DNA from: a virus
Taxonomy: Duplodnaviria > Heunggongvirae > Uroviricota > Caudoviricetes
Virus record (IMG/VR): IMGVR_UViG_3300037504_000227
Coordinates: 11,201-75,200 of that record
Direction: 5' to 3' (one strand)
Length of the DNA: 64,000 bases
This document shows positions 2,182-63,071 of this stretch, piece after piece. Every line of letters begins with the position of its first letter. The stretch's first letter is position 1. The notes below the pieces were generated by a model, which ran no database searches, was not told where the DNA came from, and saw only the letters and a list, made by a program, of their open reading frames with translations. The translations under genes were made by a program, and so were the position numbers.

Positions 2182-3309
2182 GTGAACATTGACCGCACCA
2201 TTAAACTCATCGAAGAAAAATCACTAGGCCCACGAATCCCTCTTGAGGTAGAGGATGTGCTTGAGTCTCCCCAGTTCTGGAGACTTAAAGTTAACCCCCT
2301 GCCGCCAAAGCTAGCAAACGGCAACGATGGTAAGATCCTTAGCATGAACACCATCGCTAGCCGCGCCACAAAAGATCTCCCTGTTCTCACAGGGGTGCCC
2401 ATTAGTGGGTGCAACTATGGCCCTGATGGGATGTTCCTGGTCATTCGCAAGGAAGCCCCTGACATCGTTCCATACACCAAGGGAGTGAAAGGCGTGCTTC
2501 CAATTCGTCTAGGCGTCGATCCTGATGGGAAGCCGGTGGAAATCGACTTGGCGCAAGCTCCCCACCTGCTTGTAGCTGGCGAAACAGGGTCAGGGAAGTC
2601 GGTCTTCGTTAACAGTCTCATCTTGTCCCTACTGGAAAACAATACGCCTCAAGAACTTCGGATGCTGATGGTGGACCCCAAGCGGGTCGAACTGTCAGCA
2701 TACCAGCGGATTGGACACCTGCTAGCTCCTATCATCACCGAAACAGATAAAGCCATTGCCACACTGGAATGGCTAGTCACAGAGATGAATAAGCGGTATA
2801 CAGAAATGGCCGAGGCAGGGGCGCGTAATATCGCCCAAACGGATATGCCAAGAATCGTGGTAGTGGTTGACGAGCTGGCAGATCTGATTATGTCGGATGA
2901 CGACGTAGAAGATTTGCTAGTCAAGCTGGCTCAAAAGGGCAGGGCAGCAGGGATTCACCTTGTCCTAGCAACCCAGTACCCAACGCACGAAGTGGTAACC
3001 GGCCTGCTTAAGGCTAACATGCCCGTCCGTGTTTCCTTCAGGCTCGCCCAGGGATACAATAGCAGGGTTGTGCTGGACCAATCTGGTGCGGAAGACTTAT
3101 ATGGCAAGGGCGATGGATTGCTTTTGCTTAATGGCGAGCTGGTGCGGTTTCAGGGTGCATACGCCACTGATAAGCAGATAGGCTTAATCGCTTGTCAGGC
3201 ACGCAAGCAGTATTCTCAGTGGCAGCCTGAAGTGAAGTCAGACAAGATGGATACAGCCCAGCAAATCGCAGAGATGTTGAGCTGGGTTGACATATATAAG
3301 GAGGGGTGA
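2182..3309 (+). CDS. FtsK/SpoIIIE-family DNA translocase-like ATPase
   Basis: Walker A (VAGETGSGKSVFVNSLILSLL) and Walker B (IVVVVDELADL) as in FtsK/SpoIIIE/TraB motor domains; GTG start with AAGGAGG RBS. Confidence 0.75.
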   Translation: MNIDRTIKLIEEKSLGPRIPLEVEDVLESPQFWRLKVNPLPPKLANGNDGKILSMNTIASRATKDLPVLTGVPISGCNYGPDGMFLVIRKEAPDIVPYTKGVKGVLPIRLGVDPDGKPVEIDLAQAPHLLVAGETGSGKSVFVNSLILSLLENNTPQELRMLMVDPKRVELSAYQRIGHLLAPIITETDKAIATLEWLVTEMNKRYTEMAEAGARNIAQTDMPRIVVVVDELADLIMSDDDVEDLLVKLAQKGRAAGIHLVLATQYPTHEVVTGLLKANMPVRVSFRLAQGYNSRVVLDQSGAEDLYGKGDGLLLLNGELVRFQGAYATDKQIGLIACQARKQYSQWQPEVKSDKMDTAQQIAEMLSWVDIYKEG

Positions 3310-3699
3310 AATGGATAAGAGAGATCCTGATATTGAAATCCTAAAACCGACAAGCATCTGGATCGAAGAAAAAGGAGCGCCAGAGAACGCATACGAAACC
3401 GAGATCAATGGCGTGAAAGTGTGGATCGCCCCAAAGGAAGACGACGATGAATAAGGGATTCGACCGCAACCATGGGGAGATCAACAGACGACAGTGGCGT
3501 CACAACTGCCATCGCGGCGCATACGAGAGAGAGCTTGCGCCAGGGACTAGGCCGAGTGCAGACGCACACGCCACGCTCCCACATCCCAACAAGCACAAGC
3601 GCAAGCAGGGATGGAGGATCGAGGTCATCTTTCTTGGGCTGCTTATGTCTCTCGCGCCGATTGCATACGTGCTGATTATGTTCGCAAAGTGAGGCGACT

Positions 3700-4638
3700 A
3701 TGAAAATTAAAGTCAAGGACGCCGTTCAACAGTGGCTTGGACACCTTCGATCTACCCAAGCCGAAAACACCTACATCACTTACGAAATCGCCATCCGGCT
3801 GTTCAACGAGATGTTTGGCGAGATGCAGGTTAATGAGTTGGGGTTCACCCAGCTTACAGACTACATGGCACAACTCCGCGACTACGCACCGTCCACGGAA
3901 AGCATCAAAACGTCAGCGGTCATGAACTTCTACGAATGGTGTGTTGCTAGTGGTGCCAGCATCGATATCGAGCGGGCCAGAGCCATCCGGAAGAGAATGT
4001 CTCGGAAGGTTCCCGAACAGATCCCCGACTTCAACATGGAGGACGTTGAAGCCGTAATCGACTATGTTCTATCAAGACCGGATTCAATCGAGATGACTAC
4101 ACGGCAGAGGATGGTCCTAGCACGGGACAAAGCGATCTTCGCCATTCTGGCCCATGCCGGGCTCAGGGTTAGCGAGATTGCCGCCCTTAAGGTGTACGAT
4201 TACGAGGATGGACACCTGATCCTTAGAACACAAAAGAATCTCAGGCGCAACGAGAGAGTTCCGCTCTCAGGAACAGCACAGGAGAATCTGAACAAGTATC
4301 TTGTATTGCGCGACCTTTGGACTGGTGAAACGGGGCAACACTTACCCCTAATCTCTGGACACGCCAGACGCCAGAGCAGGGAAATCTCCAGTATGTCCTC
4401 ACAAAGCCTTTACGATCTGGTCAAGCGCTGGACTATCGAGGCGATTGGAGAAGAGCGGGCAGAGGGCATTAGCCCACATACATTCCGCCATCGGTTCGTG
4501 ACCAGGGTCTTACAAAAGACTGGCGATCTGGTCATCACACAGAAAGCAGCACGTCACAGAAGCCCGAAGGTCACACTGCGATATGTCCATCTTGCTGACG
4601 ATGAGGTCAGCCAAGCGATCTTGGAGGCAGTAGAGTGA
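3700..4638 (+). CDS. int: tyrosine recombinase / phage integrase (XerC/D-like)
   Basis: C-terminal catalytic signature HTFRHRF...RHRSPKVTLRYVHL (R-H-R-Y tetrad). Confidence 0.8.
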   Translation: MKIKVKDAVQQWLGHLRSTQAENTYITYEIAIRLFNEMFGEMQVNELGFTQLTDYMAQLRDYAPSTESIKTSAVMNFYEWCVASGASIDIERARAIRKRMSRKVPEQIPDFNMEDVEAVIDYVLSRPDSIEMTTRQRMVLARDKAIFAILAHAGLRVSEIAALKVYDYEDGHLILRTQKNLRRNERVPLSGTAQENLNKYLVLRDLWTGETGQHLPLISGHARRQSREISSMSSQSLYDLVKRWTIEAIGEERAEGISPHTFRHRFVTRVLQKTGDLVITQKAARHRSPKVTLRYVHLADDEVSQAILEAVE

Positions 4639-6383: not shown

Positions 6384-6807
6384 AGATCGAGGCAAGGAAG
6401 AATCACTTGGAGAATACCAAATACACCCAGAGCCAGAGCGTGGCGACGAAGTGGTAATCGACGGGAAAAGCTACACGCTTGCCCGTCGAAGATGCACCGC
6501 TGATGAAGTCGCTTGGATTTGTCATCCCTTGCGAGAGGGCGTTGTGAAGGCAGGTGTTGACGCTGCTCGCAGGATTGTTGAGAAAAACGTAGATAGCGTA
6601 GAGTTCTTCCAAGAGCGCCCATATACCATCACCAAAGTCACAGCCTATATCAACGGCGCAGAATACTCTGCTATCGGAATTTCGAAAGTTCAGTATCCTG
6701 ACCGCTGGAACCGAGAGCTTGGCATCAAGATCGCAACAGGCAGAGCGGTTAAGAAGATCGCTCGCGCCATTGCCAGCGGAGAGCAACTGAACGAGTCGCT
6801 ATCTTAG
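6364..6807 (+). CDS. hypothetical protein
   Basis: AAGGAGG RBS then ATG at 6364. Confidence 0.4.
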   Translation: MYELIIEDRGKEESLGEYQIHPEPERGDEVVIDGKSYTLARRRCTADEVAWICHPLREGVVKAGVDAARRIVEKNVDSVEFFQERPYTITKVTAYINGAEYSAIGISKVQYPDRWNRELGIKIATGRAVKKIARAIASGEQLNESLS

Positions 6808-6828
6808 ACACCTTTAAGCTATACCTCC

Positions 6829-6857
6829 TTGACTTTCTCCCCTCTTCATGGTAAGAT
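6829..6857 (+). promoter_or_regulatory. sigma70-like promoter (TTGACT-17-TAAGAT)
   Basis: predicted TSS ~6865, exactly at the 5' end of the first tRNA-like element. Confidence 0.5.
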
Positions 6858-6866
6858 GTGTCTGAA

Positions 6867-6988
6867 GTGGTCGTGGTGTAATGGGAGCACGCGAAAAGCC
6901 CGTCTTTCACCAATTGCCTGCAAGGGCCGACGAGGGACGGTTATCCTATTCGGAAGGCGAGGATCGGGTTCGAATCCCGACGACCACT
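6867..6988 (+). ncRNA. tRNA-like ncRNA, candidate Y RNA (YrlA-like) copy 1
   Basis: 7-bp acceptor pairing GTGGTCG/CGACCAC, D-arm GTGT-AATGGGA-GCAC, T-arm TCGGG-TTCGAAT-CCCGA; ~70-nt insertion where a 17-nt anticodon arm would be; 300 nt upstream of a Ro60/TROVE gene. Confidence 0.5.
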
Positions 6989-7058
6989 TTTTGGGCCGAA
7001 GAGCCATCGTTATCCTATATAGATGAAGCTGATGGCTCGCTCACTTGCCCATAACAGC

Positions 7059-7178
7059 GTGGCTGTAGCTTAATTGGAAAAGCACTTACCCTCTTCTTCA
7101 GCAACTTACCTTTTGGGTCGATTGAGGAAGATTACCGCTCATAACGGAGTGTTCTGGGTTCGAGTCCCAGCAGCCACG
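7059..7178 (+). ncRNA. tRNA-like ncRNA, candidate Y RNA (YrlA-like) copy 2
   Basis: acceptor GTGGCTG/CAGCCAC, D-arm GCTT-AATTGGA-AAGC, T-arm CTGGG-TTCGAGT-CCCAG; ~70-nt insertion in anticodon position. Confidence 0.5.
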
Positions 7179-7286
7179 GTTCGTGTACGGGTCGCCGCTT
7201 GACGCTTATCTTTCGCCAGTAGCATTGGTGTTTGAAAGGCACCAGAAGCACCCGCGTCGGCAATTTTATCTGTACAGGAGGATAAT

Positions 7287-8906
7287 ATGCAGGAATACCA
7301 CAAGCATTTCTCGACCAAGAAAACCCCGCAATCTCAGCCAATCCCAGGAACCAATCAGCAGCAGAACAGCGCTGGTGGATTTGCTTGGAAGGTTGACGAC
7401 TGGGCACGCCTTGACCGCTTCCTGATCTTGGGATCAGAGGGTGGCACTTACTACGTCAACGAGCGTGAGCTGACCATAAGAAACGCAAATGCTGTTATGC
7501 GTTGCATCAAGAACGACGGCAAGCGTGCAGTCGAACACATTGCAGAAATCAGCGAGCAGGGCAGAGCGCCCAAAAACGATCCTGCTCTGTTTGCCCTTGC
7601 AATGGCGGCCAGCGCAGATGATCAAGAAACCCGCGTGGCGGCACTTGATGCACTTCCTCGTGTGGCTCGCATTCCGACGCACCTGTTTCACTTCCTGGAA
7701 TACTGCAAGGCATTTCGGGGATGGGGACGCGGACTGCGTGAGGCTGTGGCAAGCTGGTACAACGACAGAGACCCAGGACGACTAGCCTATCACGTTGTAA
7801 AATACCAAAGCCGCGATGGATGGAGTAATCGTGATGCTCTTAGACTGTCTCACCCAACTCCTACAACGCCACAGCACGACAAGATTTATGGATGGGTGAC
7901 GCAAGGACACTCAGTTGACATCCCTCTGATCTCAGCATTCGAGGAAGCAAAAACTGCTGACGAGAAAAGAACAGTCGAGCTAATTCAAGAACACCGTCTT
8001 ACTAGAGAGATGATCAACACCAAACACCTAAACAGCGCTGCTGTGTGGGAGGCACTACTTGAGAATATGCCTCTGCATGCTATGGTGCGCAACTTGGGCA
8101 AGATGACAGATGTTGGACTAATCAAGCCAATGAGCAACGCCGTTACGACAGTGGCTAGCAAGCTATCAGACAAAGAGTATATCCACAAAAGCAGAATGCA
8201 CCCTCTCAAGTTGCTTGTCGCCTTGAAGGTGTATGAGAGTGGTGGTGGATACAGAGGAAGCCTGAGCTGGAATCCAGTGACACAGGTTGTCGATGCACTA
8301 GACAACGCTTTCTATCTGGCGTTTGATAATGCTAAGGTGACTGGCAAGAGAAGGATGCTGGCCTTGGACGTGTCAGGCTCTATGGCATCTGGCGAGATTG
8401 CCGGGATGCCAAACATCACGCCTAGAGTGGCAAGCGCCGCATTGGCAATGGTAACACTTCAAACAGAACCCAGCGTAACGACGACAATCTTCTCGTCCGG
8501 CGGCACGAACTTCAAACAAACAGGGCGCGGGGGGTGGCTGGGCGCGAACGGGATTTCAACCTTCTCCCTGTCGTCAAAGCGGCGACTTGATGATGTTATC
8601 CGAGCTGTATCAGGGCTTCCGTTTGGTGGCACTGATTGTGCCCTGCCAATGATCTATGCTCTTGAGAATGATCTAGAGATTGATTCGTTTGAGGTATACA
8701 CAGACTCCGAGACATGGGCAGGAGATATCCATCCCGTACAGGCACTTGATAAATACCGCAACAAAACTGGAATCCCTGCAAAGCTTGTTGTAATTGGGAT
8801 GACTAGCAATGGATTCTCAATCGCAGACCCAAACGACCCGGGAATGTTGGATGTAGTCGGATTTGACACCGCCACTCCGAATGTAATCTCTCAATTCCTC
8901 CTGTAG
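7287..8906 (+). CDS. rsr: Ro60-like TROVE-domain protein with C-terminal vWA/MIDAS domain (Rsr-like)
   Basis: TROVE-like N-terminal region, long helical repeat region, DxSxS MIDAS (LDVSGSM) plus GGTDCALP as in Ro60/Rsr; AGGAGG RBS. Confidence 0.75.
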   Translation: MQEYHKHFSTKKTPQSQPIPGTNQQQNSAGGFAWKVDDWARLDRFLILGSEGGTYYVNERELTIRNANAVMRCIKNDGKRAVEHIAEISEQGRAPKNDPALFALAMAASADDQETRVAALDALPRVARIPTHLFHFLEYCKAFRGWGRGLREAVASWYNDRDPGRLAYHVVKYQSRDGWSNRDALRLSHPTPTTPQHDKIYGWVTQGHSVDIPLISAFEEAKTADEKRTVELIQEHRLTREMINTKHLNSAAVWEALLENMPLHAMVRNLGKMTDVGLIKPMSNAVTTVASKLSDKEYIHKSRMHPLKLLVALKVYESGGGYRGSLSWNPVTQVVDALDNAFYLAFDNAKVTGKRRMLALDVSGSMASGEIAGMPNITPRVASAALAMVTLQTEPSVTTTIFSSGGTNFKQTGRGGWLGANGISTFSLSSKRRLDDVIRAVSGLPFGGTDCALPMIYALENDLEIDSFEVYTDSETWAGDIHPVQALDKYRNKTGIPAKLVVIGMTSNGFSIADPNDPGMLDVVGFDTATPNVISQFLL

Positions 8907-8926: not shown

Positions 8927-8970
8927 GAAGGGCAATCGCTCGCACAGGGTTGCCCTTCTTGCGTTATCTT
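8927..8970 (+). terminator. intrinsic terminator-like hairpin after rsr
   Basis: GAAGGGCAA/TTGCCCTTC 9-bp stem followed by TTGCGTTATCTTT. Confidence 0.4.
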
Positions 8971-9002
8971 TAAGGTGTAATCCAGCAATTTCGTGGTATA
9001 AT
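8968..9002 (+). promoter_or_regulatory. phage promoter CTTTAAGGT-N16-GTGGTATAAT
   Basis: motif family member. Confidence 0.55.
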
Positions 9003-29467: not shown

Positions 29468-30131
29468 CTACGCGCCGAATCCTAGTGTCGATACGTCACC
29501 CTCAACAACGCCACCGAAGTCGATGCTCCAGAACTCGCCAGTCGAAGCCGATACACTCCAGCTTCCAAACTGACCGTCAAAGTACCACCCGTTCCCGGTA
29601 TTGGTACGATCTGGATAGACAGCGATATTAACCGTCGTGGTGCTTGAGCCAGTCACCTGATCGAACAGTGTCTTTTCAGACGTGTTCATTAGCGCTGATC
29701 CACTGAAGTCTGTGCCGTAGGTTCCGACACGTCGGATCTGGCTCTCGTCACCGAAAATGCTTGCCTCGGCTGTCTCACGGCTGATGTCGATGCTGAAGGA
29801 GGTTACGTAGTTAGTAATGCTTCCGTCGATGTAAACTGCTCCATCACTGTTGTCTATTAGCTTTCACTAGCAGTTGGACTATATCATCACCTAACGGTGT
29901 CGGGCGCTCTGGGAGAGGTTATTGCCTGCTTGGCTCACTCTCTAGTCTCTGAACCTGCCCCATACTGAATAGCGTTCAGGGGATTGGCTGCTGATTGCCC
30001 AATGCGGTCTGTTTTCAAACCTTCACGCTTGCCGTTTCCAGCTACGTTGTGGTCAGATCGCCTCTAAGGGTATTCCAGCAATTCACCCGATTACGGCCCC
30101 GATGGAATTAGAGGCCGGTCTTGTAGGCCAT
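29468..30131 (-). CDS. putative major tail protein, two exons: complement(join(29468..29864,30112..30131)), 138 aa after splicing
   Basis: exon 1 AGGAGGattttATG encodes MAYKTGL then hits a stop; large C-terminal ORF has no start; removing 29865-30111 joins them in frame (..KTGL|KLIDNSDG..). Confidence 0.5.
29865..30111 (-). mobile_element. group I intron (~247 nt, no ORF) in major tail protein gene
   Basis: exon 1 ends in U; P1 exon CGGCCU pairs with IGS GGGCCG (intron nt 13-18) giving U.G at splice site; R-like GUUCAGAGACUAGAG and S-like GAUGAUAUAGUCC elements (P7 GACUA/UAGUC); intron ends in G. Confidence 0.55.
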
Positions 30132-30140
30132 AAAATCCTC

Positions 30141-31220
30141 CTATGTTGTTTCTAAACGTTCGAAATATTCAAGAATGTTTTCAATCACATCATCTCTCAC
30201 AAATGGCATCTCTGCTGCCCACTCCATAGCGTCCTTGTCATTTTTGCTGGAGTTGCATCGCTTGCAAGCTGGAACTATGTTGTTTTGTGTGTATGGACCG
30301 CCTTTTGCCACTGGTATAAAGTGATCTTGGGTCAACCGCTTCATCTTTCTGCCACAGTATGCACATTTGTTTCCAAAGCACTTTTTGACCTCACTCCACT
30401 GTTTAGAGGTGAAGTTGTGCTCTAGTCCGTTAATTTTCGCTCGGCGGATTTGTGCATTCCTATTGGCCACAGCGCGCCCCCTATCAGACTTTGTATATTT
30501 AGACCAGCACTCATTACACCAAGACCCAACTCCATTTTGCCTGCGCTCATCTGGTCTAAATTCGTCCAATGGCTTTGTCTGATTGCAGTTCGAACATCGT
30601 GAAAGCCCTCTGTCAAACAAAAACTTTGTTTCTGCCCATGACCAAGCTCTCTCTCCACCAGCTCGACAATCTCTGCATCGACTTCTGTACCCACATTTGT
30701 TGTATGCGCTTTTCCCAAATTCATCAAGCTCTTTTGTTTCATTGCACTGTGAGCACTCTTTAAGCCCCATCCATCTTAGAACTTGCTCCATTGCTCGGCG
30801 TCCTGATAGTATATGTTGTCCTCTGTCAGACCATATCTCTTTGCGCTTTTTGGAATCGCACTCTAGACAGTGTGTCATTTTGCTGTTTGGTCCAGACAAC
30901 TTGTTTCCAAATGCAGAAATTGGCTTAATTTCTTCGCAATGCGTGCATCTTCTAAGCCCCTCCTCGAATAATCTCTGGCGCTCCTTCTGAGTTTTGTGTC
31001 TGTTTGTTGTTCTTTTGCATTCCATACACTCAGATCTAACACCACCGATTTTTGCCCCTGTTCTGTCCTCGTAGAATTCATCAAGGGGCTTAATCTCGCC
31101 ACACCGCTTGCAGAACTTTAGACCTGTAGCTATCAGGGTGTCTTGGATCTCTCTATACCGATTTGTCCTGTGATGCAATTGTAAAAGTTCGTCCTTGATA
31201 TTCATGTGCCCTCCTAGCAC
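30141..31220 (-). CDS. HNH homing endonuclease with multiple CxxC zinc-ribbon repeats
   Basis: C-terminal HNH motif CAYCGRK...QDHFIPVAKGGPYTQNNIVPACKRCNSSK; stop overlaps RBS of intron-containing gene. Confidence 0.75.
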   Translation of the reverse strand: MLGGHMNIKDELLQLHHRTNRYREIQDTLIATGLKFCKRCGEIKPLDEFYEDRTGAKIGGVRSECMECKRTTNRHKTQKERQRLFEEGLRRCTHCEEIKPISAFGNKLSGPNSKMTHCLECDSKKRKEIWSDRGQHILSGRRAMEQVLRWMGLKECSQCNETKELDEFGKSAYNKCGYRSRCRDCRAGGERAWSWAETKFLFDRGLSRCSNCNQTKPLDEFRPDERRQNGVGSWCNECWSKYTKSDRGRAVANRNAQIRRAKINGLEHNFTSKQWSEVKKCFGNKCAYCGRKMKRLTQDHFIPVAKGGPYTQNNIVPACKRCNSSKNDKDAMEWAAEMPFVRDDVIENILEYFERLETT

Positions 31221-31354
31221 TCCCCTAGATTGATTGGGGCAGAGGGGTAGGAGAGTCCCCCTTTTCGCTCCGTCGAGCTAGCCCCATATACTCTTAATTC
31301 TCATCTATTTTATCTAAGTGTTAAAGCCCACTCAAGGTTGCACATCTGCGACAC

Positions 31355-31389
31355 CTTTAAGGTCACTTTTTTGACTTTTGTGGTATAAT
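31355..31389 (+). promoter_or_regulatory. phage promoter CTTTAAGGT-N16-GTGGTATAAT
   Basis: motif family member; divergent from tail block. Confidence 0.55.
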
Positions 31390-31541
31390 AGCATCACGGG
31401 TCGGGTAGAGGGCTTAAGCCCTGGGGAGACTGGCGCAAGAGATGAAACCCCTCCAATTGCAGCGCTAGGCATAATTTGGCAGATGGTGAGAGTCCATCAC
31501 CGACCCGATAATAGACAATCTTAGTCAAAAGGAGGCAGTAG

Positions 31542-32462
31542 ATGAAACGAAATGCAGGATACGTAATCGGTACAGTCGTTGTGATCGCAGTCCTGGTTGG
31601 TATGGGGTTGCTAATGTCACTTGTCCGAGTCAACTACGACGAAGTAGGGCTTCTGACGAAGTGGGGCGCTCTGACTGGCGATGTATATGAGCCGGGGGCG
31701 CATCTTCGAATCCCTGTCATCTATGGTGTTCGCCGGGTGCCTGTTGCTATTCGCTCGTATGAAACCTCAAGCAATCCAGAATCTTCCCTGGCGGACTATC
31801 GGGATTTCCCTATCACGGCCCAGACAGTCGATGGTCAGCAGATCGAGATTCGCTTCACAGTCATCTTCCGCGTAACGAGCGACAGCGCACTTGAGGCAAT
31901 CCGAAACGCTGGCAGCTTCAACGCCATTGTTGAGAATGTCGTCAAGGCACACTCCCGTAGTCTTGCGCGAACCATTGCCCAGCAGTATTCTGCTGAGGAA
32001 TTGTACTCTGGTGATGGGATCGTTGGTTACCAAGACGAAGTTGAGCGTCAGTTGACTGAGGAGTTCTCTGAATACAACGTCGTGCTTGAGGATTTCCTTG
32101 TGCGCAAGATTGACTTCGACCAGAACTACACAGACGCAATCGAGCAGCAGCAGATTGCCGAAGAGGCGATTGAGACTGCAGAGTATCGCGCACAAGCTGC
32201 AGAGCATGAACGTGACCAGCAGATCACAATGGCTGAGGCCGAGGCAGAGCGTGCTCGGTTGAACGCCCAGGCCGAGGCTGATAGCCAGCGGTTATTGGCC
32301 GATGCAGAGGCGTACAGCATCGAGGTTCGTGGAGCTGCGCTTCGACAATATCCTGAATTAGTCCAGTGGCAGTTTGTGCAGGGGCTTGATAGTGTGGACT
32401 GGGGTATTATGCCCAGCGACGGCATCACGCCTCTCATCCCTGTTCCCGAAGTCGGAGAGTAA
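31542..32462 (+). CDS. SPFH/band-7 (HflK/C, stomatin-like) membrane protein
   Basis: N-terminal TM helix, SPFH core, C-terminal Ala/Glu-rich coiled coil. Confidence 0.7.
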   Translation: MKRNAGYVIGTVVVIAVLVGMGLLMSLVRVNYDEVGLLTKWGALTGDVYEPGAHLRIPVIYGVRRVPVAIRSYETSSNPESSLADYRDFPITAQTVDGQQIEIRFTVIFRVTSDSALEAIRNAGSFNAIVENVVKAHSRSLARTIAQQYSAEELYSGDGIVGYQDEVERQLTEEFSEYNVVLEDFLVRKIDFDQNYTDAIEQQQIAEEAIETAEYRAQAAEHERDQQITMAEAEAERARLNAQAEADSQRLLADAEAYSIEVRGAALRQYPELVQWQFVQGLDSVDWGIMPSDGITPLIPVPEVGE

Positions 32463-32470
32463 CTTTAATT

Positions 32471-32493
32471 GGGAGGGGGCTTGTCCCCCTCCC
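32471..32493 (+). terminator. strong hairpin GGGAGGGGG-cttgt-CCCCCTCCC
   Basis: 9-bp GC stem after SPFH gene; no U-tract. Confidence 0.45.
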
Positions 32494-32511
32494 GCAAAGG
32501 AGGTTGATAGA

Positions 32512-32730
32512 ATGGATGATAACGCTGTTTTCTACTTGTTTCTGATTTGGACTGCTATCATAGCCATATTCTTCGGAGTTCTTGGGCGCAATTTGGAAGT
32601 AGACTATCTGTGCACTGAGAATGGGTACGACGGCAGAGAATTCGTTAACGGGGTTGCTTATTGTCGTCTTGACACTAATGATGGGCAGGAACTGTTTGCC
32701 CTGAACGATCTGATTGCCGATGCAGAATAG
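32512..32730 (+). CDS. small membrane protein (NfeD-like partner position)
   Basis: TM helix; directly downstream of SPFH gene. Confidence 0.4.
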   Translation: MDDNAVFYLFLIWTAIIAIFFGVLGRNLEVDYLCTENGYDGREFVNGVAYCRLDTNDGQELFALNDLIADAE

Positions 32731-32932
32731 GGACGCTGTAGCCGATCTGTTGCACGATGCTGTAGACGATTGGGCTAATGGGGAGTTGTCGGATTGGACA
32801 TTCTTGTTCCTGATTAAGAGCTTGGTTGAGCGTCCAAGCAATGAGGATGCTGAAAAAGCGCAAGAATGGGGGCGTAAAAAGATGGCAGGGCAGCTTTCTG
32901 CGCTTGACATCGTTAGTGTAGATGGCTCATAA
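32714..32932 (+). CDS. hypothetical protein
   Basis: ORF. Confidence 0.35.
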   Translation: MPMQNRDAVADLLHDAVDDWANGELSDWTFLFLIKSLVERPSNEDAEKAQEWGRKKMAGQLSALDIVSVDGS

Positions 32933-33575
32933 GGAGGCGAGGATGAAATATCCAAAGATTGAAACCTTGTACAACCGCGATGATAACTTTAAGGTCGTCC
33001 CTGGCGATTTCAGGGTGCCAGAGTTTGCCTTGGTGAAACGATGGTTGTTCACAGAGAAGATTGATGGTCGCAACCATCGAATCATCCTGCATCATGACGG
33101 ACAGGTTAAGCATCGTGGGCGGACAGATCGTGCTCAGTTTGCTGACTTTGAGATGGCAGGGGCGCAAGCGGCGATTGATGAGGATCAATTGCGATATGTC
33201 ATCAAGGAAGGTGACAGCGGATGGCCTCTGACGATCTTGTATGGGGAATTGTATGGCCCTAAGATCCAGGGTGGCGGCAAATATCGTGATGATGTTGGGT
33301 TCAGGCTGTTCGATATCCGAATCGAAGACTGGTGGATGAATTGGTCTGACGTTGTGGACATTGGGACGCAGTTGGGCTTGCAGATCGTCCCAGTTCTTGG
33401 TGAGTATGACAGTTGGCTACCAACGTGTCTAGATGAGCTTTTGGATCTGTTGCCAGATGGGTCTAGGCTTGAGAAGCCTGGGGAACCTGAAGGCGTTGTT
33501 GCACGGACAGAACCGTTGCTGATGACGCGGCGTGGGGATCGGTTGATGTGGAAACTCAAAGTGAGGGATTTCTGA
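32922..33575 (+). CDS. ATP-dependent RNA ligase-like nucleotidyltransferase (small Rnl/PF09414-like)
   Basis: motif I lysine TEKIDGRN (KxDG), TILYGELYGPKIQGGGKY downstream motif, basic C-terminus. Confidence 0.5.
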   Translation: MAHKEARMKYPKIETLYNRDDNFKVVPGDFRVPEFALVKRWLFTEKIDGRNHRIILHHDGQVKHRGRTDRAQFADFEMAGAQAAIDEDQLRYVIKEGDSGWPLTILYGELYGPKIQGGGKYRDDVGFRLFDIRIEDWWMNWSDVVDIGTQLGLQIVPVLGEYDSWLPTCLDELLDLLPDGSRLEKPGEPEGVVARTEPLLMTRRGDRLMWKLKVRDF

Positions 33576-61940: not shown

Positions 61941-62012
61941 GGGTCGGTAGTTTAATCGGTAAAACCTCCGTCTCCAACACGGAAGATGCTGACTCAGTTT
62001 CAGCCCGGCCTG
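61941..62012 (+). tRNA. tRNA-Trp(CCA)
   Basis: hand-folded cloverleaf, anticodon loop CTCCAAC; T-loop CTCAGTT non-canonical. Confidence 0.5.
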
Positions 62013-62017
62013 CCTAG

Positions 62018-62090
62018 AGGGGATTAGCTCAGGTGGAAGAGCGCTGGCTTTGGGAGTCAGAGGTCGCCAGATCATGGCTGGCATCCCCTA
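62018..62090 (+). tRNA. tRNA-Pro(TGG)
   Basis: acceptor AGGGGAT/ATCCCCT, D GCTC-AGGTGGAA-GAGC, loop TTTGGGA; T-loop ATCATGG. Confidence 0.55.
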
Positions 62091-62095
62091 TAAAC

Positions 62096-62168
62096 TGCTC
62101 CGTAGCTCAATTGGAGGAGCCGCCGCCTGTTAAGCGGAGGGTTGCTGGATCATAGCCAGTCGGAGCAG
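62096..62168 (+). tRNA. tRNA-Asn(GTT)
   Basis: acceptor TGCTCCG/CGGAGCA, loop CTGTTAA; T-loop ATCATAG. Confidence 0.55.
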
Positions 62169-62196
62169 CCTGAATAGAACCTTAACACTTGAACAA

Positions 62197-62268
62197 GCGT
62201 CTATAATTTAGTCGGTAGAATGCCTGCTTGCCATGCAGGCTGCGCGGGTTCAAGTCCCGCTAGACGCT
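62197..62268 (+). tRNA. tRNA-Gly(GCC)
   Basis: acceptor GCGTCTA/TAGACGC, loop TTGCCAT, canonical T-arm GCGGG-TTCAAGT-CCCGC. Confidence 0.6.
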
Positions 62269-62336
62269 CTTTGTCTGGGAGAGAAATGTCGGAGTTGCCG
62301 ACACTAAATGCATACCTGGACTCTCTCAGGCGCTAT

Positions 62337-62412
62337 TCCCGGATAGCCAAGTCTGGTAAGGCGCTGCTCTGATGAGGCAGTAATTGCGTGGGTTCAAATC
62401 CCACTCCGGGGA
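62337..62412 (+). tRNA. tRNA-Ile(GAT) (tentative)
   Basis: acceptor TCCCGGA/TCCGGGG, loop CTGATGA, T-arm GTGGG-TTCAAAT-CCCAC; 3-bp D stem, 7-nt variable loop. Confidence 0.4.
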
Positions 62413-62531
62413 CTCTCCGCGTGGGCTAATTGCCTTAAAGTCGCAGGGATGGCCTCCTGAGATGTGCGAGGTCGAGCGAGAGTGCTTTAGCGGGCATTTG
62501 AGCAAGACAGGCGACCGCACCGCGAGAACGA

Positions 62532-62604
62532 GGGCCTGTAGATCAGTCAGGAGATCACTTCTTTTGCAAAGAAGAGGACACCGGGGCGGAGCCGGTCAGG
62601 TCCA
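62532..62604 (+). tRNA. tRNA-Ala(TGC) (non-canonical T-loop)
   Basis: perfect 73-nt cloverleaf count, D GATC-AGTCAGGA-GATC, loop TTTGCAA; T-loop GGCGGAG lacks TPsiC. Confidence 0.4.
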
Positions 62605-62710
62605 CTAAGGACATTTGGGTTCAATTCCCATTCAGATGCCCTAGGAGCATCTGAGCGCTTCTGTTCAGGCCAAATAGAAGCGTCAGTCTGGAATGACTGT
62701 GTCCGAGAAA

Positions 62711-62781
62711 TGCGAGGTAACTCAGAGGTAGAGTGCTGGTTTCATGTGCCAGAAGCCTCGGTTCAATTCCGAGCCTCGCTA
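62711..62781 (+). tRNA. tRNA-Met/Ile2(CAT) (tentative)
   Basis: loop TTCATGT, T-arm CTCGG-TTCAATT-CCGAG, 1-72 mismatch. Confidence 0.4.
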
Positions 62782-62784
62782 TAA

Positions 62785-62858
62785 GCGGGTGTGGTCTAGT
62801 GGTCGAGGATGCTTGCCTGTCAAGCAAGAGGACGTCGGTTCAAATCCGTCCACCCGCG
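62785..62858 (+). tRNA. tRNA-Asp(GTC)
   Basis: acceptor GCGGGTG/CACCCGC, anticodon stem CTTGC/GCAAG, loop CTGTCAA, T-loop TTCAAAT. Confidence 0.55.
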
Positions 62859-62863
62859 CCTAG

Positions 62864-62935
62864 AGGCGCTTTGTGTAGTGGCTATCACACAGGGCTTTGA
62901 CCCCTGGGACACTGGTTCAAATCCAGTAGCGCCTG
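62864..62935 (+). tRNA. tRNA-Gln(TTG)
   Basis: acceptor AGGCGCT/AGCGCCT, anticodon stem CAGGG/CCCTG, loop CTTTGAC, T-arm ACTGG-TTCAAAT-CCAGT. Confidence 0.55.
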
Positions 62936-62938
62936 TTT

Positions 62939-63012
62939 GCGCCCGTAGTGGAATCGGTTAACACGCCGGCCTCTCAAGTCGGAGATTGCGGGATCGTACC
63001 CCGCCGGGCGTA
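62939..63012 (+). tRNA. tRNA-Glu(CTC)
   Basis: acceptor GCGCCCG/CGGGCGT, loop CTCTCAA; T-loop ATCGTAC non-canonical. Confidence 0.5.
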
Positions 63013-63013
63013 C

Positions 63014-63071
63014 TGGGATGTGGCCTAACGGTATGGCGTGTAAGATTCAGGTTCAAGTCCTGGCATCCTAG
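63014..63071 (+). other. truncated tRNA-like element (acceptor + D-arm + T-arm, no anticodon arm)
   Basis: TGGGATG/CATCCTA acceptor pairing, T-arm TCAGG-TTCAAGT-CCTGG, only 58 nt. Confidence 0.35.

What the first reader, a model, noticed from the sequence alone, without database searches (positions are those of the whole stretch)
6829..8906. Phage Ro60 (TROVE-vWA) gene preceded by two promoter-driven tRNA-like RNAs: candidate Ro60/Y-RNA module
7287-8906 encodes a Ro60/Rsr-like protein (TROVE region plus MIDAS DxSxS). Just upstream, a TTGACT-17-TAAGAT promoter has its predicted +1 at the 5' end of the first of two ~120-nt elements. Each element has a 7-bp acceptor-like closing stem, a D-arm with GG and a canonical TTCGAAT/TTCGAGT T-arm. 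In each, the anticodon-arm position is occupied by a ~70-nt insertion, about 50 nt longer than an anticodon arm. Bacterial and phage Ro60 orthologs are known to pair with YrlA-type Y RNAs that mimic tRNA D/T/acceptor features, so these are the natural candidates. Two tandem diverged copies is unusual. The same genome also carries an RNA ligase-like gene, a DEDD exonuclease and a 10-tRNA array, which together suggest an RNA-repair or tRNA-protection theme.
Basis: partly seen in the sequence, partly recalled or inferred. Interest (0 to 1): 0.85.

Follow-up and report, generated by a model that had tools for sequence, protein, structure and literature searches.

The report
Phage Ro60 operon with four Y RNAs
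A phage carries a Ro60 gene preceded by four small RNAs with Ro60-docking helices; two of them are complete tRNA-shaped molecules with that helix inserted between the D arm and the anticodon arm, a widespread layout that I did not find described in the papers I could read.

Summary
Window 7287-8906 encodes a full-length Ro60 (TROVE plus vWA/MIDAS). A sigma70-like promoter (6829-6857) sits just upstream of two about 120-nt tRNA-like elements.

The leader holds four Ro60-type RNAs: tRNA-like el1 (6866-6988), hairpin Y RNA (6990-7053), tRNA-like el2 (7058-7178) and a weaker hairpin Y RNA (7186-7274).

The "insertion" in el1 and el2 is a capped copy of the Y-RNA Ro60-binding helix (CUUGCC-loop-GGGCCGA...GUUAUC). 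It is followed by a relic anticodon arm.

The elements therefore keep the normal tRNA order, with open ends at an 8-bp acceptor stem. Published YrlA RNAs are the circular permutation, T arm, closed acceptor loop, then D arm.

A covariance model built only from bacterial genomes scores el2 at 85 bits and el1 at 80 bits. The window's true tRNAs score 36 bits or less.

The same layout occurs next to Ro60, on the same strand, in about 100 of 248 loci examined. These include phages, Myxococcota, Chloroflexota, Gemmatimonadota and Armatimonadota, often in tandem copies. Covariation is strong: 98% of cells paired and 22 of 26 pairs with compensatory changes.

Verdict: a genuine Ro60/Y-RNA operon, ordinary in kind. 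Its tRNA-like members belong to an apparently undescribed tRNA-collinear variant of YrlA.

The parts
6829..6857 (+). Sigma70-like promoter: -35 TTGACT (6829-6834), 17-nt spacer, extended -10 TG-n-TAAGAT (6852-6857). Predicted +1 is about 6864-6866, at the 5' end of el1.
   Evidence: Consensus scan, 9 of 12 matches with TG. The closest relative L002 has a 12 of 12 promoter ending 9 nt before its own tRNA-like element. Function is inferred.
6866..6988 (+). el1, a tRNA-collinear Y RNA. 8-bp closing stem (6866-6873 with 6981-6988). D arm 6876-6890 (GUGU/GCAC). Capped Ro60-type hairpin 6899-6940: inner stem, 3'-type strand AAUUGCCU 6912-6919, GCAA cap 6920-6923, 5'-type strand GGGCCGA 6924-6930. 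GUUAUC at 6940-6945. Degenerate anticodon-like hairpin CCU-AUUCGGA-AGG at 6945-6957. T arm 6964-6980.
   Evidence: R3 80.3 bits, E 2.2e-18, with all modelled pairs standard. R1 92.5 bits. MFE fold. Family alignment and covariation.
6990..7053 (+). Hairpin Y RNA 'Y-A'. 5' strand UGGGCCGAAG, inner stem AGCCAUC, GUUAUCC, loop, inner stem GAUGGCU, 3' strand CACUUGCCCA. The GCCGAAG stretch matches the published GNCGAAN0-1G motif exactly.
   Evidence: The rule-based detector fires only here and at 7186-7274 in the 64-kb window, and 254 versus 1 times on the Ro60 strand versus the opposite strand of 1.42 Mb of loci. R2 48.8 bits, but this sequence was in the seed. Fold z-score -3.6.
7058..7178 (+). 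el2, a tRNA-collinear Y RNA. 8-bp closing stem (7058-7065 with 7171-7178). D arm 7068-7083. Capped Ro60-type hairpin about 7092-7131: 3'-type strand AACUUACCU ending at 7111, UUU cap 7112-7114, 5'-type strand GGGUCGA 7115-7121. UUACC at 7132-7136. Anticodon-like arm UACCG-CUCAUAA-CGGAG at 7133-7149 (pseudo-anticodon CAU). Variable loop UGUU. T arm 7154-7170.
   Evidence: R3 85.1 bits, E 1.4e-19. R1 95.5 bits. Rfam tRNA 44.9 bits with a 61-nt insert. Fold z-score -3.5. ARAGORN calls tRNA-Met(CAU) once the hairpin is removed in silico.
7186..7274 (+). Probable second hairpin Y RNA 'Y-B'. 5' strand UACGGGUCGCCG, inner stem GACGC, UUAUCU, 40-nt loop region, inner stem GCGUC, 3' strand GGCAAUUUUAUCUGUA. 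The Ro motif is weaker (GUCGCC).
   Evidence: R2 18.2 bits, E 0.04; it was not in the seed and is the only other R2 hit in the window on either strand. The rule-based detector also finds it. The closing helix forms in the MFE of the whole leader but not when the segment is folded alone.
7276..7281 (+). Shine-Dalgarno AGGAGG, 5 nt before the Ro60 start codon.
   Evidence: Read directly from the sequence.
7287..8906 (+). Ro60 (Rsr) gene, 539 aa: TROVE/HEAT ring plus vWA domain with MIDAS residues (DVSGS, GGTDC).
   Evidence: Pfam hits. About 60% identity to thousands of bacterial and phage Ro60 proteins. Invariant residues among 30 homologues. Solved relatives 9nen and 1yvp (E 1e-126) and 2nvo (E 1e-118).
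8927..8971 (+). Terminator-like hairpin GAAGGGCAA-14 nt-UUGCCCUUC followed by the U-rich tail UUGCGUUAUCUUU. Likely end of the transcription unit.
   Evidence: Read directly from the sequence. The scan tool did not call it because its loop limit is 8 nt. Inferred.

Best explanation
The segment 6829-8971 is one transcription unit. A sigma70-type promoter drives a roughly 420-nt leader that folds into four independent Ro60-ligand RNAs, followed by the Ro60 mRNA.

Two of the RNAs (6990-7053 and 7186-7274) are simple hairpin Y RNAs. Their 5' and 3' ends form the conserved bulged Ro60-binding helix, GGGYCGR paired with CUURYCC, with GUUAUC above it.

The other two (6866-6988 and 7058-7178) are tRNA-collinear Y RNAs. 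Each is a whole tRNA body with an 8-bp acceptor stem, D arm, shortened anticodon arm, variable loop and T arm. The same Ro60-binding helix, closed by a small cap loop, is inserted between the D arm and the anticodon arm at tRNA position 26/27.

In connectivity these elements equal published YrlA RNAs, except that the chain break sits at the acceptor end instead of at the end of the Ro60 helix.

Inferred steps:
- Phage Ro60 binds all four RNAs through the GGGYCGR strand.
- The tRNA-like bodies are made or trimmed by tRNA enzymes. el1 probably starts at the transcription start site. The ends of el2 are probably cut by RNase P and 3' tRNA processing, which would also release the interleaved hairpin Y RNAs and the Ro60 mRNA.
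- The resulting RNPs tether Ro60 to host partners (PNPase-type exonucleases, or tRNA-binding or RNA-repair factors) to remodel or repair RNA during infection.

Shown here: the sequence and structure family, its covariation, its strict linkage to Ro60 and its topology. Inferred: Ro60 binding, processing and biological role.
For: - Protein. A bona fide Ro60.
- Independent scoring. Model R3, built without window sequences, gives el2 85.1 bits and el1 80.3 bits with no non-standard pair. True tRNAs score 36 bits or less.
- Family structure. In 48 seed sequences, 22 of 26 pairs show compensatory changes. In an independent set of 76 bacterial elements, 98.3% of cells are paired, against 38-52% in slid controls, and 22 of 26 pairs are compensatory.
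- Unselected features. The -1:73 pair is present in 41 of 48, whereas -2:74 pairs in 17 of 48, which is chance level. The Levitt pair covaries, G15:C48 in 30 and A15:U48 in 14. Acceptor pairing of at least 6 of 7 occurs in 27 of 39 candidates not selected for it, against 1 of 156 in shifted controls.
- Ro60 motif. The family consensus CGGGCCGAAGG contains the published GNCGAAN0-1G motif (PMC4201824).
- Anticodon-arm relic. In 97 elements the loop has U33 in 89, a purine at 37 in 91 and A38 in 77, followed by the variable loop AGGUC.
- Hairpin Y RNAs. 254 on the Ro60 strand, 1 on the opposite strand and 0 in shuffles; only two in the window. R2 results agree.
- Linkage to Ro60. Every R1 hit of 55 bits or more lies on the Ro60 strand. 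In an RNA-first pattern scan of IMG/VR, 11 of the 15 matching loci have Ro60 nearby on the same strand, and the other 4 give no R1 hit, so they are not this RNA.
- Modular folding. The MFE fold of the whole leader gives four separate modules.
- Relatives. The closest loci L001-L003 carry the same mix of one tRNA-like element plus two or three hairpin Y RNAs upstream of Ro60, behind consensus promoters.
- Precedent. M. smegmatis YrlA and YrlB are processed from one precursor upstream of rsr, and YrlA is cut by RNase P and receives CCA (PMC4201824). Thermus phage Ro60 binds two phage Y-like RNAs and host PNPase (PMC12135203).
Against: - There are no expression, end-mapping or binding data for this phage or for any collinear element.
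- el1 and el2 each deviate by one base from the strict GNCGAA motif (GCCGAC and GUCGAU). Y-B deviates by two, and its model score is marginal (E 0.04).
- The anticodon-like arm of el1 is degenerate (3 bp), and its 15:48 pair is A-A.
- It is untested whether Ro60 tolerates a capped helix end.
- With -1:73 paired, RNase P cleavage may be inefficient or shifted.
- No terminator or processing site is demonstrated.
- The promoter is only a 9 of 12 consensus match.
Confidence: 0.75

Rival explanations
1. el1 and el2 are interrupted tRNA genes. The Ro-type hairpin would be an intron-like insert that is excised to give functional decoding tRNAs, for example tRNA-Met(CAU) from el2.
For: - After in-silico removal of the hairpin, ARAGORN calls a tRNA for 47 of 48 family members, and el2 becomes tRNA-Met(CAU).
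- The anticodon-like loop keeps the Y32-U33-NNN-R37-A38 signature.
- The Rfam tRNA model hits el2 above its gathering score.
Against: - The insert lies at position 26/27, not in the anticodon loop. It has no group I core and no known bacterial excision machinery (established knowledge).
- It carries the conserved Ro60-binding consensus and is strictly linked to Ro60 genes.
- The anticodon stem usually keeps a mismatch, with 4 of 5 pairs in most members.
- 13 of 97 pseudo-anticodons start with A34, and only 2 of those are ACG, the one A34 anticodon bacteria normally use.
- The 'discriminator' is C in 40% of these elements against 4.5% in neighbouring tRNAs.
- The chimera control for the ARAGORN test is leaky, at 19 of 48.
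- The permuted relatives are experimentally stable, Ro60-bound RNAs (PMC4201824).
Confidence: 0.05
2. The locus encodes one canonical, permuted YrlA. It would run from the 5' Ro strand of el1 (6924) through the el1 T arm, use 6981-7065 including Y-A as a long 'acceptor stem', and continue through the el2 D arm to the el2 3' Ro strand (7111). The outer halves of el1 and el2 would be incidental.
For: - Published YrlA has the order T arm, AS, D arm, and 'longer acceptor stems' were reported in some phyla (PMC4201824).
- The two acceptor stems are similar, so CGACCAC (el1) can pair with GUGGCUG (el2) at 6 of 7 positions.
- The purine-rich and pyrimidine-rich inner strands of el1 and el2 can partly cross-pair.
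Against: - Within-element pairing is perfect, and covaries across the family in 7 of 7 acceptor pairs and in the Ro helix.
- At the covarying Ro-helix pair, el1 has G:C and el2 has A:U. The cross-pairing would give C-A.
- The 8th pair, -1:73, marks the element ends precisely.
- 64 loci have a single collinear element with no partner T or D arm.
- The MFE of the whole leader keeps four separate modules.
- The promoter +1 coincides with the 5' end of el1, here and in L002.
Confidence: 0.05
3. The tRNA-like elements act only as processing punctuation, as in mascRNA or mitochondrial tRNA punctuation. They would recruit RNase P and RNase Z to release the hairpin Y RNAs and the Ro60 mRNA, and would not themselves be Ro60 ligands.
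For: - The elements alternate with hairpin Y RNAs.
- They have an authentic acceptor plus T-arm stack.
- M. smegmatis YrlA is an RNase P substrate, and YrlA and YrlB come from one precursor (PMC4201824).
- mascRNA appeared as a weak Rfam look-alike of el1.
Against: - Punctuation needs no Ro helix, yet the GGGYCGR/CUURYCC helix and GUUAUC are the most conserved non-tRNA parts of the elements and covary.
- Many loci carry collinear elements without interleaved hairpins, or carry them downstream of Ro60.
Confidence: 0.1

Closest known systems
YrlA RNAs (tRNA-like bacterial and phage Y RNAs; Chen et al. 2014, PMC4201824; crystal structure 6CU1, bioRxiv 10.1101/312249)
   Same: - Encoded next to Ro60 on the same strand.
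- Ro60-binding 5' strand of GNCGAA type, followed by YUAY (UUAUC).
- Near-invariant tRNA-type D and T arms, with G15:C48 / A15:U48 Levitt covariation.
- A hairpin between UUAUC and the T arm, called 'V' in that paper.
- Identical connectivity of the helices.
   Different: - The chain is circularly permuted relative to YrlA. Here the 5' and 3' ends lie at an open 8-bp acceptor stem and the Ro60 helix is capped by a loop. In YrlA the ends lie in the Ro60 helix and the acceptor stem is a closed loop of variable length.
- I verified the YrlA order in phages Rizal and Cashline. There the collinear model scores lower, and its acceptor-stem pairs are broken in part.
[quoted passage not shown]
   Same: A tRNA-like body with a free, tRNA-type 7-bp acceptor end joined to a Ro60-binding stem. 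It is encoded upstream of rsr together with a second Y RNA in one precursor.
   Different: That RNA is a two-piece molecule produced by cutting a permuted precursor. The window's elements would give the same shape as a single chain. CCA is not encoded in el1 or el2; in the family it is encoded in 17 of 139 elements.
Simple Y RNAs: metazoan Y RNAs, D. radiodurans Yrn1 and Yrn2, YrlB, and Thermus phage phiLo Yrl1 and Yrl2 (PMC12135203)
   Same: For 6990-7053 and 7186-7274: the 5' and 3' ends form a bulged helix whose 5' strand resembles GGUCCGA. They are encoded beside Ro60, and there are several per locus.
   Different: Neither hairpin Y RNA gives an Rfam Y_RNA hit. They are short (64 and 89 nt) with small effector loops. 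Binding is untested.
b7a-tRNA (Band-7-associated tRNA-like RNA; Burroughs and Aravind 2016, as cited in bioRxiv 10.1101/312249)
   Same: A predicted tRNA-like RNA with native tRNA topology in RNA-repair neighbourhoods, said to lie occasionally next to Rsr.
   Different: It is described as strongly resembling an authentic tRNA, with no mention of a Ro60-binding hairpin. I could not read the paper or its alignments, so identity or overlap with the collinear family is unresolved. The window has a separate Band-7 plus RNA-ligase module with its own unrelated structured leader RNA at 31397-31512.

Membership tests
Ro60 / Rsr protein (TROVE family) | TROVE (HEAT-repeat ring) domain | tested here: met
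   PF05731 at 9.4e-48. Full-length alignment to 1yvp, 9nen and 2nvo.
Ro60 / Rsr protein (TROVE family) | C-terminal vWA domain with MIDAS residues (DxSxS ... T ... D) | tested here: met
   PF25045 at 1.1e-60. D361, S363, S365, T449 and D450 are invariant in 30 homologues.
YrlA RNA | Encoded within about 4 kb of Ro60 on the same strand | tested here: met
   el1 and el2 lie 110-420 nt upstream of the Ro60 ATG on the same strand. Every family hit of 55 bits or more lies on the Ro60 strand.
YrlA RNA | GNCGAAN0-1G Ro60-binding motif on the 5' strand of the Ro helix | tested here: inconclusive
   The family consensus CGGGCCGAAGG contains it. el1 has GCCGACG and el2 has GUCGAUUG, one mismatch each. 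Y-A has GCCGAAG, an exact match.
YrlA RNA | tRNA-type D and T arms with invariant tRNA nucleotides and a covarying 15:48 Levitt pair | tested here: met
   A14, G18G19 and the UUCGA T loop are present in both elements. 15:48 is G:C in 30, A:U in 14 and other in 4. el2 has A:U; el1 has A-A.
YrlA RNA | Conserved YUAY after the Ro 5' strand, followed by a 'V' hairpin before the T arm | tested here: met
   UUAUC in el1 and UUACC in el2, each followed by a hairpin.
YrlA RNA | Order 5'-Ro strand, V, T arm, closed acceptor stem-loop, D arm, Ro strand-3' (circularly permuted tRNA with ends in the Ro helix) | tested here: not met
   The order here is acceptor 5' strand, D arm, Ro hairpin (capped), anticodon-like arm, T arm, acceptor 3' strand. 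This is supported by covariation and by the 8-bp end boundary. The true permuted order is seen in Rizal and Cashline.
YrlA RNA | Bound by Ro60 in vivo; modified by TruB and DusA | not testable with these tools
   Requires RIP, EMSA and modification mapping.
Hairpin Y RNA (Y RNA sensu lato) | 5' and 3' termini form a bulged helix carrying the Ro60-binding motif, encoded beside Ro60 | tested here: met
   6990-7053: GGGC-C-GA paired with UU-GCCC. It meets the detector and R2 at 48.8 bits, though it was in the seed. 7186-7274 is weaker: R2 18.2 bits, E 0.04.
Hairpin Y RNA (Y RNA sensu lato) | Match to the Rfam Y_RNA model (RF00019) or a related Rfam model | tested here: not met
   No hit at E up to 10. 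The test has little power because Rfam also gives no Y-type hit on true YrlA loci.
Decoding tRNA (RF00005) | Cloverleaf of 70-95 nt with a 5-bp anticodon stem and a usable anticodon, accepted by tRNA finders | tested here: not met
   ARAGORN rejects both elements. The lengths are 121-123 nt. The Rfam tRNA model hits el2 only by skipping 61 nt. The anticodon stem usually has 4 of 5 pairs, and A34 pseudo-anticodons occur.
Group I intron-containing tRNA | Group I catalytic core inserted in the anticodon loop | tested here: not met
   There is no Intron_gpI hit in 6780-7300. The window's only group I intron is at 29855-30180. The insert is 45-50 nt at position 26/27.
b7a-tRNA | tRNA-like RNA associated with Band-7 and RtcB operons (definition in Burroughs and Aravind 2016) | not testable with these tools
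   The paper is not held. No alignment or model is available.

The most novel reading that the evidence does not exclude
The tRNA-collinear elements are a distinct class of 'Ro60-tagged tRNAs', and possibly the ancestral one. Each would be a complete tRNA body with an 8-bp acceptor stem (often G-1:C73, as in tRNA-His), a preserved U-turn anticodon loop and sometimes an encoded CCA, carrying a Ro60-docking hairpin at position 26/27. They would be matured by the tRNA machinery. They would bring Ro60 and its nuclease or ligase partners to tRNA-binding factors, or serve as decoys or sensors for tRNA-targeting nucleases during phage infection. Permuted YrlA would then derive from tandem arrays of such elements by a shift of transcript boundaries. 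This refines the 'dimeric tRNA' origin model.
Probability: 0.25. Interest if true: 0.8.

Novelty: new variant of a known kind. Interest (0 to 1): 0.6.

Why it matters
Ro60/Y-RNA modules in bacteria and phages have been known since 2014, so the module itself is not new. Three things stand out here.

1. The tRNA-like Y RNAs beside this Ro60 clade mostly have native tRNA topology, with an open 8-bp acceptor stem. The papers I could read describe only the circularly permuted form.
2. The hairpin labelled the 'variable arm' of YrlA-type RNAs carries a full anticodon-loop signature. These RNAs are therefore whole tRNAs with a Ro60-binding hairpin inserted at position 26/27.
3. The layout is widespread. 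By my strict rule-based census it occurs in about 100 of 248 sampled Ro60 loci across phages and at least four bacterial phyla.

This gives a simple route from tRNA to Y RNA. [quoted passage not shown] It also offers compact single-chain substrates, such as the 121-nt el2, for testing what the tRNA-like domain recruits, which remains an open question for bacterial Ro60.

For phage biology, the window shows Ro60 with four Y RNAs in a genome that also encodes a Band-7 plus RNA-ligase module and ten tRNAs. That is consistent with an RNA-repair or RNA-turnover counter-defence toolkit.

Tried and rejected
- Rfam Y_RNA or YrlA similarity. There were no hits on the leader. I set this aside as evidence because Rfam 15 also fails on true YrlA loci.
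- Near and distant DNA relatives in GenBank phages. Only weak Ro60-coding matches to actinophages were found, and none to the RNAs.
- Single-protein scan of IMG/VR. No close relative was found, so an alignment-based scan was needed.
- A second contig carrying the same Ro60 (L248). Its upstream region is identical, so it adds no covariation information.
- Literature. The Chen 2014 supplements, Sim and Wolin 2018, the 2020 Annual Review article and Burroughs and Aravind 2016 are not held. The novelty claim is therefore limited to what I could read.
- Permuted reading across el1 and el2. Rejected on covariation, end boundaries and single-copy loci.
- Intron-containing tRNA. Rejected, as set out under the rival explanations.
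- My first hairpin-picking script for the 'V' arm gave mixed loop sizes. Fixing the register by counting back from the T stem resolved it.
- Band-7 relatives in IMG/VR, sought in order to test the leader RNA at 31397-31512. None were found.
- Four RNA-pattern hits in IMG/VR without Ro60 nearby. They gave no R1 hit, so they are not this RNA.

Full report
**1. What is in the window**

The ORF at 7287-8906 (539 aa) is a full-length Ro60. Pfam gives vWA_Ro60 at 1.1e-60 and TROVE at 9.4e-48. The MIDAS residues DVSGS and GGTDC are invariant among 30 homologues.

The protein is about 60% identical to thousands of Ro60 proteins from metagenomes, MAGs and Deinococcus. It aligns end to end with solved vertebrate Ro60 (9nen, 1yvp; E 1e-126) and D. 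radiodurans Rsr (2nvo; E 1e-118). Its match to the Thermus phage Ro60 is remote (9kop; E 1e-7).

The surrounding genome is phage-like and has no close relative in GenBank phages. Identified genes include an integrase, SSB, DnaB, ThyX, a capsid protein, HNH endonucleases and a tRNA array.

A TTGACT-17-TAAGAT promoter with an upstream TG lies at 6829-6857. Its predicted start, about 6864-6866, coincides with the 5' end of the first tRNA-like element. No terminator-like site separates the leader from Ro60. A long-loop hairpin with a U-rich tail follows the stop codon at 8927-8971.

**2.

el1 (6867-6988) and el2 (7059-7178) have perfect 7-bp closing stems, D arms and canonical T arms. ARAGORN rejects both. 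The Rfam tRNA model hits el2 only, by skipping 61 nt. No Rfam Y-type family hits the leader. The same is true for bona fide YrlA loci, so that absence carries no weight.

**3.

I compared the leader with the upstream regions of the three closest Ro60 loci, L001-L003, which are phage-like contigs with 62-64% protein identity. This exposed a recurring hairpin: NNN-GGGYCGR-NN-[stem]-GUUAUC-[loop]-[stem']-N-A(A)CUURYCC-NNN.

Its 5' strand is the GNCGAAN0-1G motif that Chen et al. assign to Ro60 binding and relate to the vertebrate GGUCCGA (PMC4201824).

A rule-based detector for this hairpin finds 254 copies on the Ro60 strand of 1.42 Mb of Ro60 loci. It finds 1 on the opposite strand and 0 in shuffles. 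In the 64-kb window it fires only at 6990-7053 and 7186-7274.

A covariance model of 61 such hairpins (A3, R2) also hits only these two places in the window. The first scores 48.8 bits but was a seed member. The second scores 18.2 bits (E 0.04) and was not in the seed. The 'spacers' are therefore Y RNAs in their own right, the second one less certainly.

**4. What the 'insertion' is**

Inside el1 and el2 the same helix is present with its strands in reverse order and joined by a small cap.
- el1: ...CACCAAUUGCC-U-GCAA-G-GGCCGACGAGGGACGGUUAUCC...
- el2: ...CAGCAACUUACCU-UUU-GGGUCGAUUGAGGAAGAUUACC...

The inner stem of the helix opens into the tRNA body. Its 3'-type strand follows the D arm. Its 5'-type strand leads through GUUAUC into a hairpin and then the T arm.

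This is the connectivity of YrlA with the chain break moved from the end of the Ro helix to the acceptor stem.

**5. The family and its structure**

Alignment-based scans for Ro60 gave 80 metagenome, 80 IMG/VR and 80 GTDB-genome loci.

A simple search for a T arm with a 7-bp partner upstream produced a sharp length peak at 120-135 nt. I aligned 48 such elements (A2). RNAalifold recovers the acceptor, D, inner Ro stem, GCCC/GGGC Ro helix and T stems, with compensatory changes in 22 of 26 pairs.

Because the acceptor and T stems had been used as filters, I checked features that were not selected:
- D stem, inner stem and Ro helix covariation.
- The Levitt pair: G15:C48 in 30, A15:U48 in 14.
- Acceptor pairing of at least 6 of 7 in 27 of 39 candidates chosen without it, against 1 of 156 in shifted controls.
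- An extra pair, -1:73, present in 41 of 48 (GC 25, UA 9, AU 3, CG 2, plus 2 G-U wobble pairs), whereas -2:74 pairs in 17 of 48, which is chance level.

The closing stem is therefore exactly 8 bp, which fixes the ends of the RNA. In the window these pairs are A6866:U6988 and C7058:G7178.

Model R1 then found 76 strong hits (E at most 1e-17) in bacterial genome loci that contributed nothing to the seed. The organisms include Polyangium jinanense and other Polyangium, Kofleriaceae, Haliangiales, Chloroflexia, Longimicrobium and other Gemmatimonadota, and Capsulimonadaceae and other Armatimonadota.

On that independent set, 98.3% of cells form standard pairs, against 38-52% when partners are slid. 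Again 22 of 26 pairs show compensatory changes.

Model R3, built from those 76 sequences alone, scores window el2 at 85.1 bits and el1 at 80.3 bits without a single non-standard pair. The window's ten real tRNAs score 36 bits or less.

**6. Topology against published YrlA**

Chen et al. 2014 and Wang et al. 2018 define YrlA as a circularly permuted tRNA mimic. Its order is 5' Ro strand, V, T arm, closed acceptor stem-loop, D arm, 3' Ro strand.

I confirmed that order in Mycobacterium phage Rizal (L165, about 2186-2345) and Gordonia phage Cashline (L166). In Cashline the acceptor stems are closed by short loops (UUCG, GCGAG). In both phages the collinear model scores lower, with part of its acceptor-stem pairs broken.

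Both topologies occur in my sample. Under strict rules, 97 of 248 loci carry collinear elements (33 of them with 2-4 copies) and 45 carry permuted ones.

For the window, a permuted reading across el1 and el2 is disfavoured on four grounds:
- The covarying Ro-helix pair is G:C in el1 and A:U in el2, which would be C-A if crossed.
- The 8-bp boundaries mark the element ends.
- The MFE of the whole leader gives four separate modules.
- The promoter +1 falls at the 5' end of el1, as it does for the 12 of 12 promoter of L002.

**7. The 'V arm' is an anticodon arm**

The distance from UUAYC to the T stem peaks at 23-24 nt, which is two nucleotides plus a standard 17-nt anticodon arm and a 5-nt variable loop.

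Read in tRNA register, 97 of 149 elements have at least 4 of 5 stem pairs. Their 7-nt loops have Y32 in 86 of 97, U33 in 89, a purine at 37 in 91 and A38 in 77, followed by AGGUC.

The triplet at positions 34-36 is free and includes A34 triplets that bacteria do not use. It is therefore not a decoding anticodon.

el2 reads UACCG-CUCAUAA-CGGAG-UGUU. el1 is degenerate (CCU-AUUCGGA-AGG).

Removing the Ro hairpin in silico makes ARAGORN call a tRNA for 47 of 48 members, against 2 of 48 when intact. A chimera control gives 19 of 48, so this test is only supportive.

The same loop signature is visible in the published-type YrlA of Rizal (AUUGCAA).

These RNAs are best described as whole tRNAs with a Ro60-binding hairpin inserted at position 26/27.

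**8. Linkage to Ro60**

Every R1 hit of 55 bits or more lies on the Ro60 strand, upstream or downstream of the gene.

I also ran an RNA-first scan of IMG/VR with a topology-specific pattern, CTTGCCC-N3-20-GGGCCGA-N8-16-GGTTATC. It gave 15 loci. Eleven encode Ro60 nearby on the same strand. The other four are not recognised by R1, so they are not this RNA.

**9. Mechanism**

The structure family, topology and linkage are shown. The rest is inferred.

By analogy with M. smegmatis, where YrlA and YrlB are cut from one precursor upstream of rsr and YrlA is cleaved by RNase P and given CCA (PMC4201824), I infer the following. The leader is processed into four RNAs. el1 begins at the transcription start. 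The tRNA-like bodies supply RNase P and 3'-processing sites.

By analogy with D. radiodurans and with Thermus phage phiLo, whose Ro60 binds two phage Y-like RNAs and host PNPase (PMC12135203), the RNPs probably couple Ro60 to host exonucleases or to tRNA-binding or repair factors.

The genome also encodes a Band-7 protein and a PF09414 RNA ligase behind their own structured leader, a PolB-exo/RNase H-like exonuclease and ten tRNAs. This is consistent with, but does not prove, an RNA-repair or turnover theme.

**10. Novelty and limits**

Ro60 with Y RNAs in phages is known. The collinear architecture, the 8-bp end and the retained anticodon loop are not described in the papers I could read, including all 26 library papers dated 2018 or later that contain 'YrlA'.

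Four key sources are not held: the Chen 2014 supplements, Sim and Wolin 2018, the 2020 Annual Review article and Burroughs and Aravind 2016, which describes b7a-tRNA. Prior description therefore cannot be excluded.

Chen et al. note that their first model found few YrlAs in delta-proteobacteria. Those are the lineages where I find the collinear form to dominate.

I rate this a new variant of a known kind, of moderate to high interest to specialists. The window's copy is a typical member of the variant.

Noticed in passing
window 31372-33575: A sigma70-like promoter (TTGACT...TGGTATAAT) drives a structured RNA of about 115 nt at 31397-31512, with an 8-bp closing stem CGGGUCGG/CCGACCCG and a fold z-score of -2.3. 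It sits directly upstream of a Band_7/SPFH gene (31542-32462), which is followed by a PF09414 RNA ligase (32922-33575). The arrangement resembles the Band-7 plus ligase plus ncRNA repair systems attributed to Burroughs and Aravind. The RNA has no Rfam match and no Ro motif.
   Followed up: partly
window 29855-31288 (- strand): A group I intron at 29855-30180 (Rfam 81.4 bits) lies next to, and slightly overlaps, an HNH endonuclease ORF at 30141-31220. An int-alpA RNA motif follows at 31222-31288 (51.8 bits). The interrupted host gene was not identified.
   Followed up: no
window 61941-63071: tRNA array. ARAGORN finds 9 tRNAs and Rfam adds a 10th at 62532-62604. Model R3 gives a weak extra tRNA-like hit at 63014-63071 (21 bits). 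None of the three window tRNAs my script picked up (62197-62267, 62337-62411, 62864-62934) encodes CCA, and neither do el1 and el2.
   Followed up: partly
A2 family members (e.g. L008 2214-2335, L026 2130-2252, L119 2153-2275): In the collinear family the position-73 base is C in 25 of 48, and it always faces a G at -1. This G-1:C73 pair is the hallmark of tRNA-His. C73 occurs in only 4.5% of neighbouring tRNAs. The window's elements instead have A:U and C:G at this pair.
   Followed up: partly
139 collinear elements across loci L001-L248 and the window: CCA is encoded directly after position 73 in 17 of 139 elements, against about 1.6% expected by chance. This hints at tRNA-like 3' ends in some lineages.
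   Followed up: partly
L201 289-491; L181 1737-1919; L198 1241-1421: Some collinear elements are 180-203 nt long yet still score 73-92 bits. The extra length is presumably the large insert in the cap-loop columns of alignment A5, which would mean the cap tolerates 3 to about 100 nt; I did not check these three elements individually.
   Followed up: no
L165 2186-2345 (Mycobacterium phage Rizal): The published-type permuted YrlA also carries the anticodon-loop signature in its 'V' hairpin (CUC-AUUGCAA-GAG followed by AGGUC). It is flanked by two hairpin Y RNAs, at about 2090-2155 and 2365-2450.
   Followed up: partly
L003 168-2799; L057 9-684; L050, L100, L128, L147: Ro60/Y-RNA loci on phage and metagenome contigs very often sit beside long tRNA arrays. 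L003, for example, has 14 tRNAs upstream.
   Followed up: no
window 2182-4638: An FtsK/SpoIIIE-like ATPase (2182-3309) and a tyrosine integrase (3700-4638) lie upstream of the Ro60 unit. The element may be temperate or integrative.
   Followed up: no
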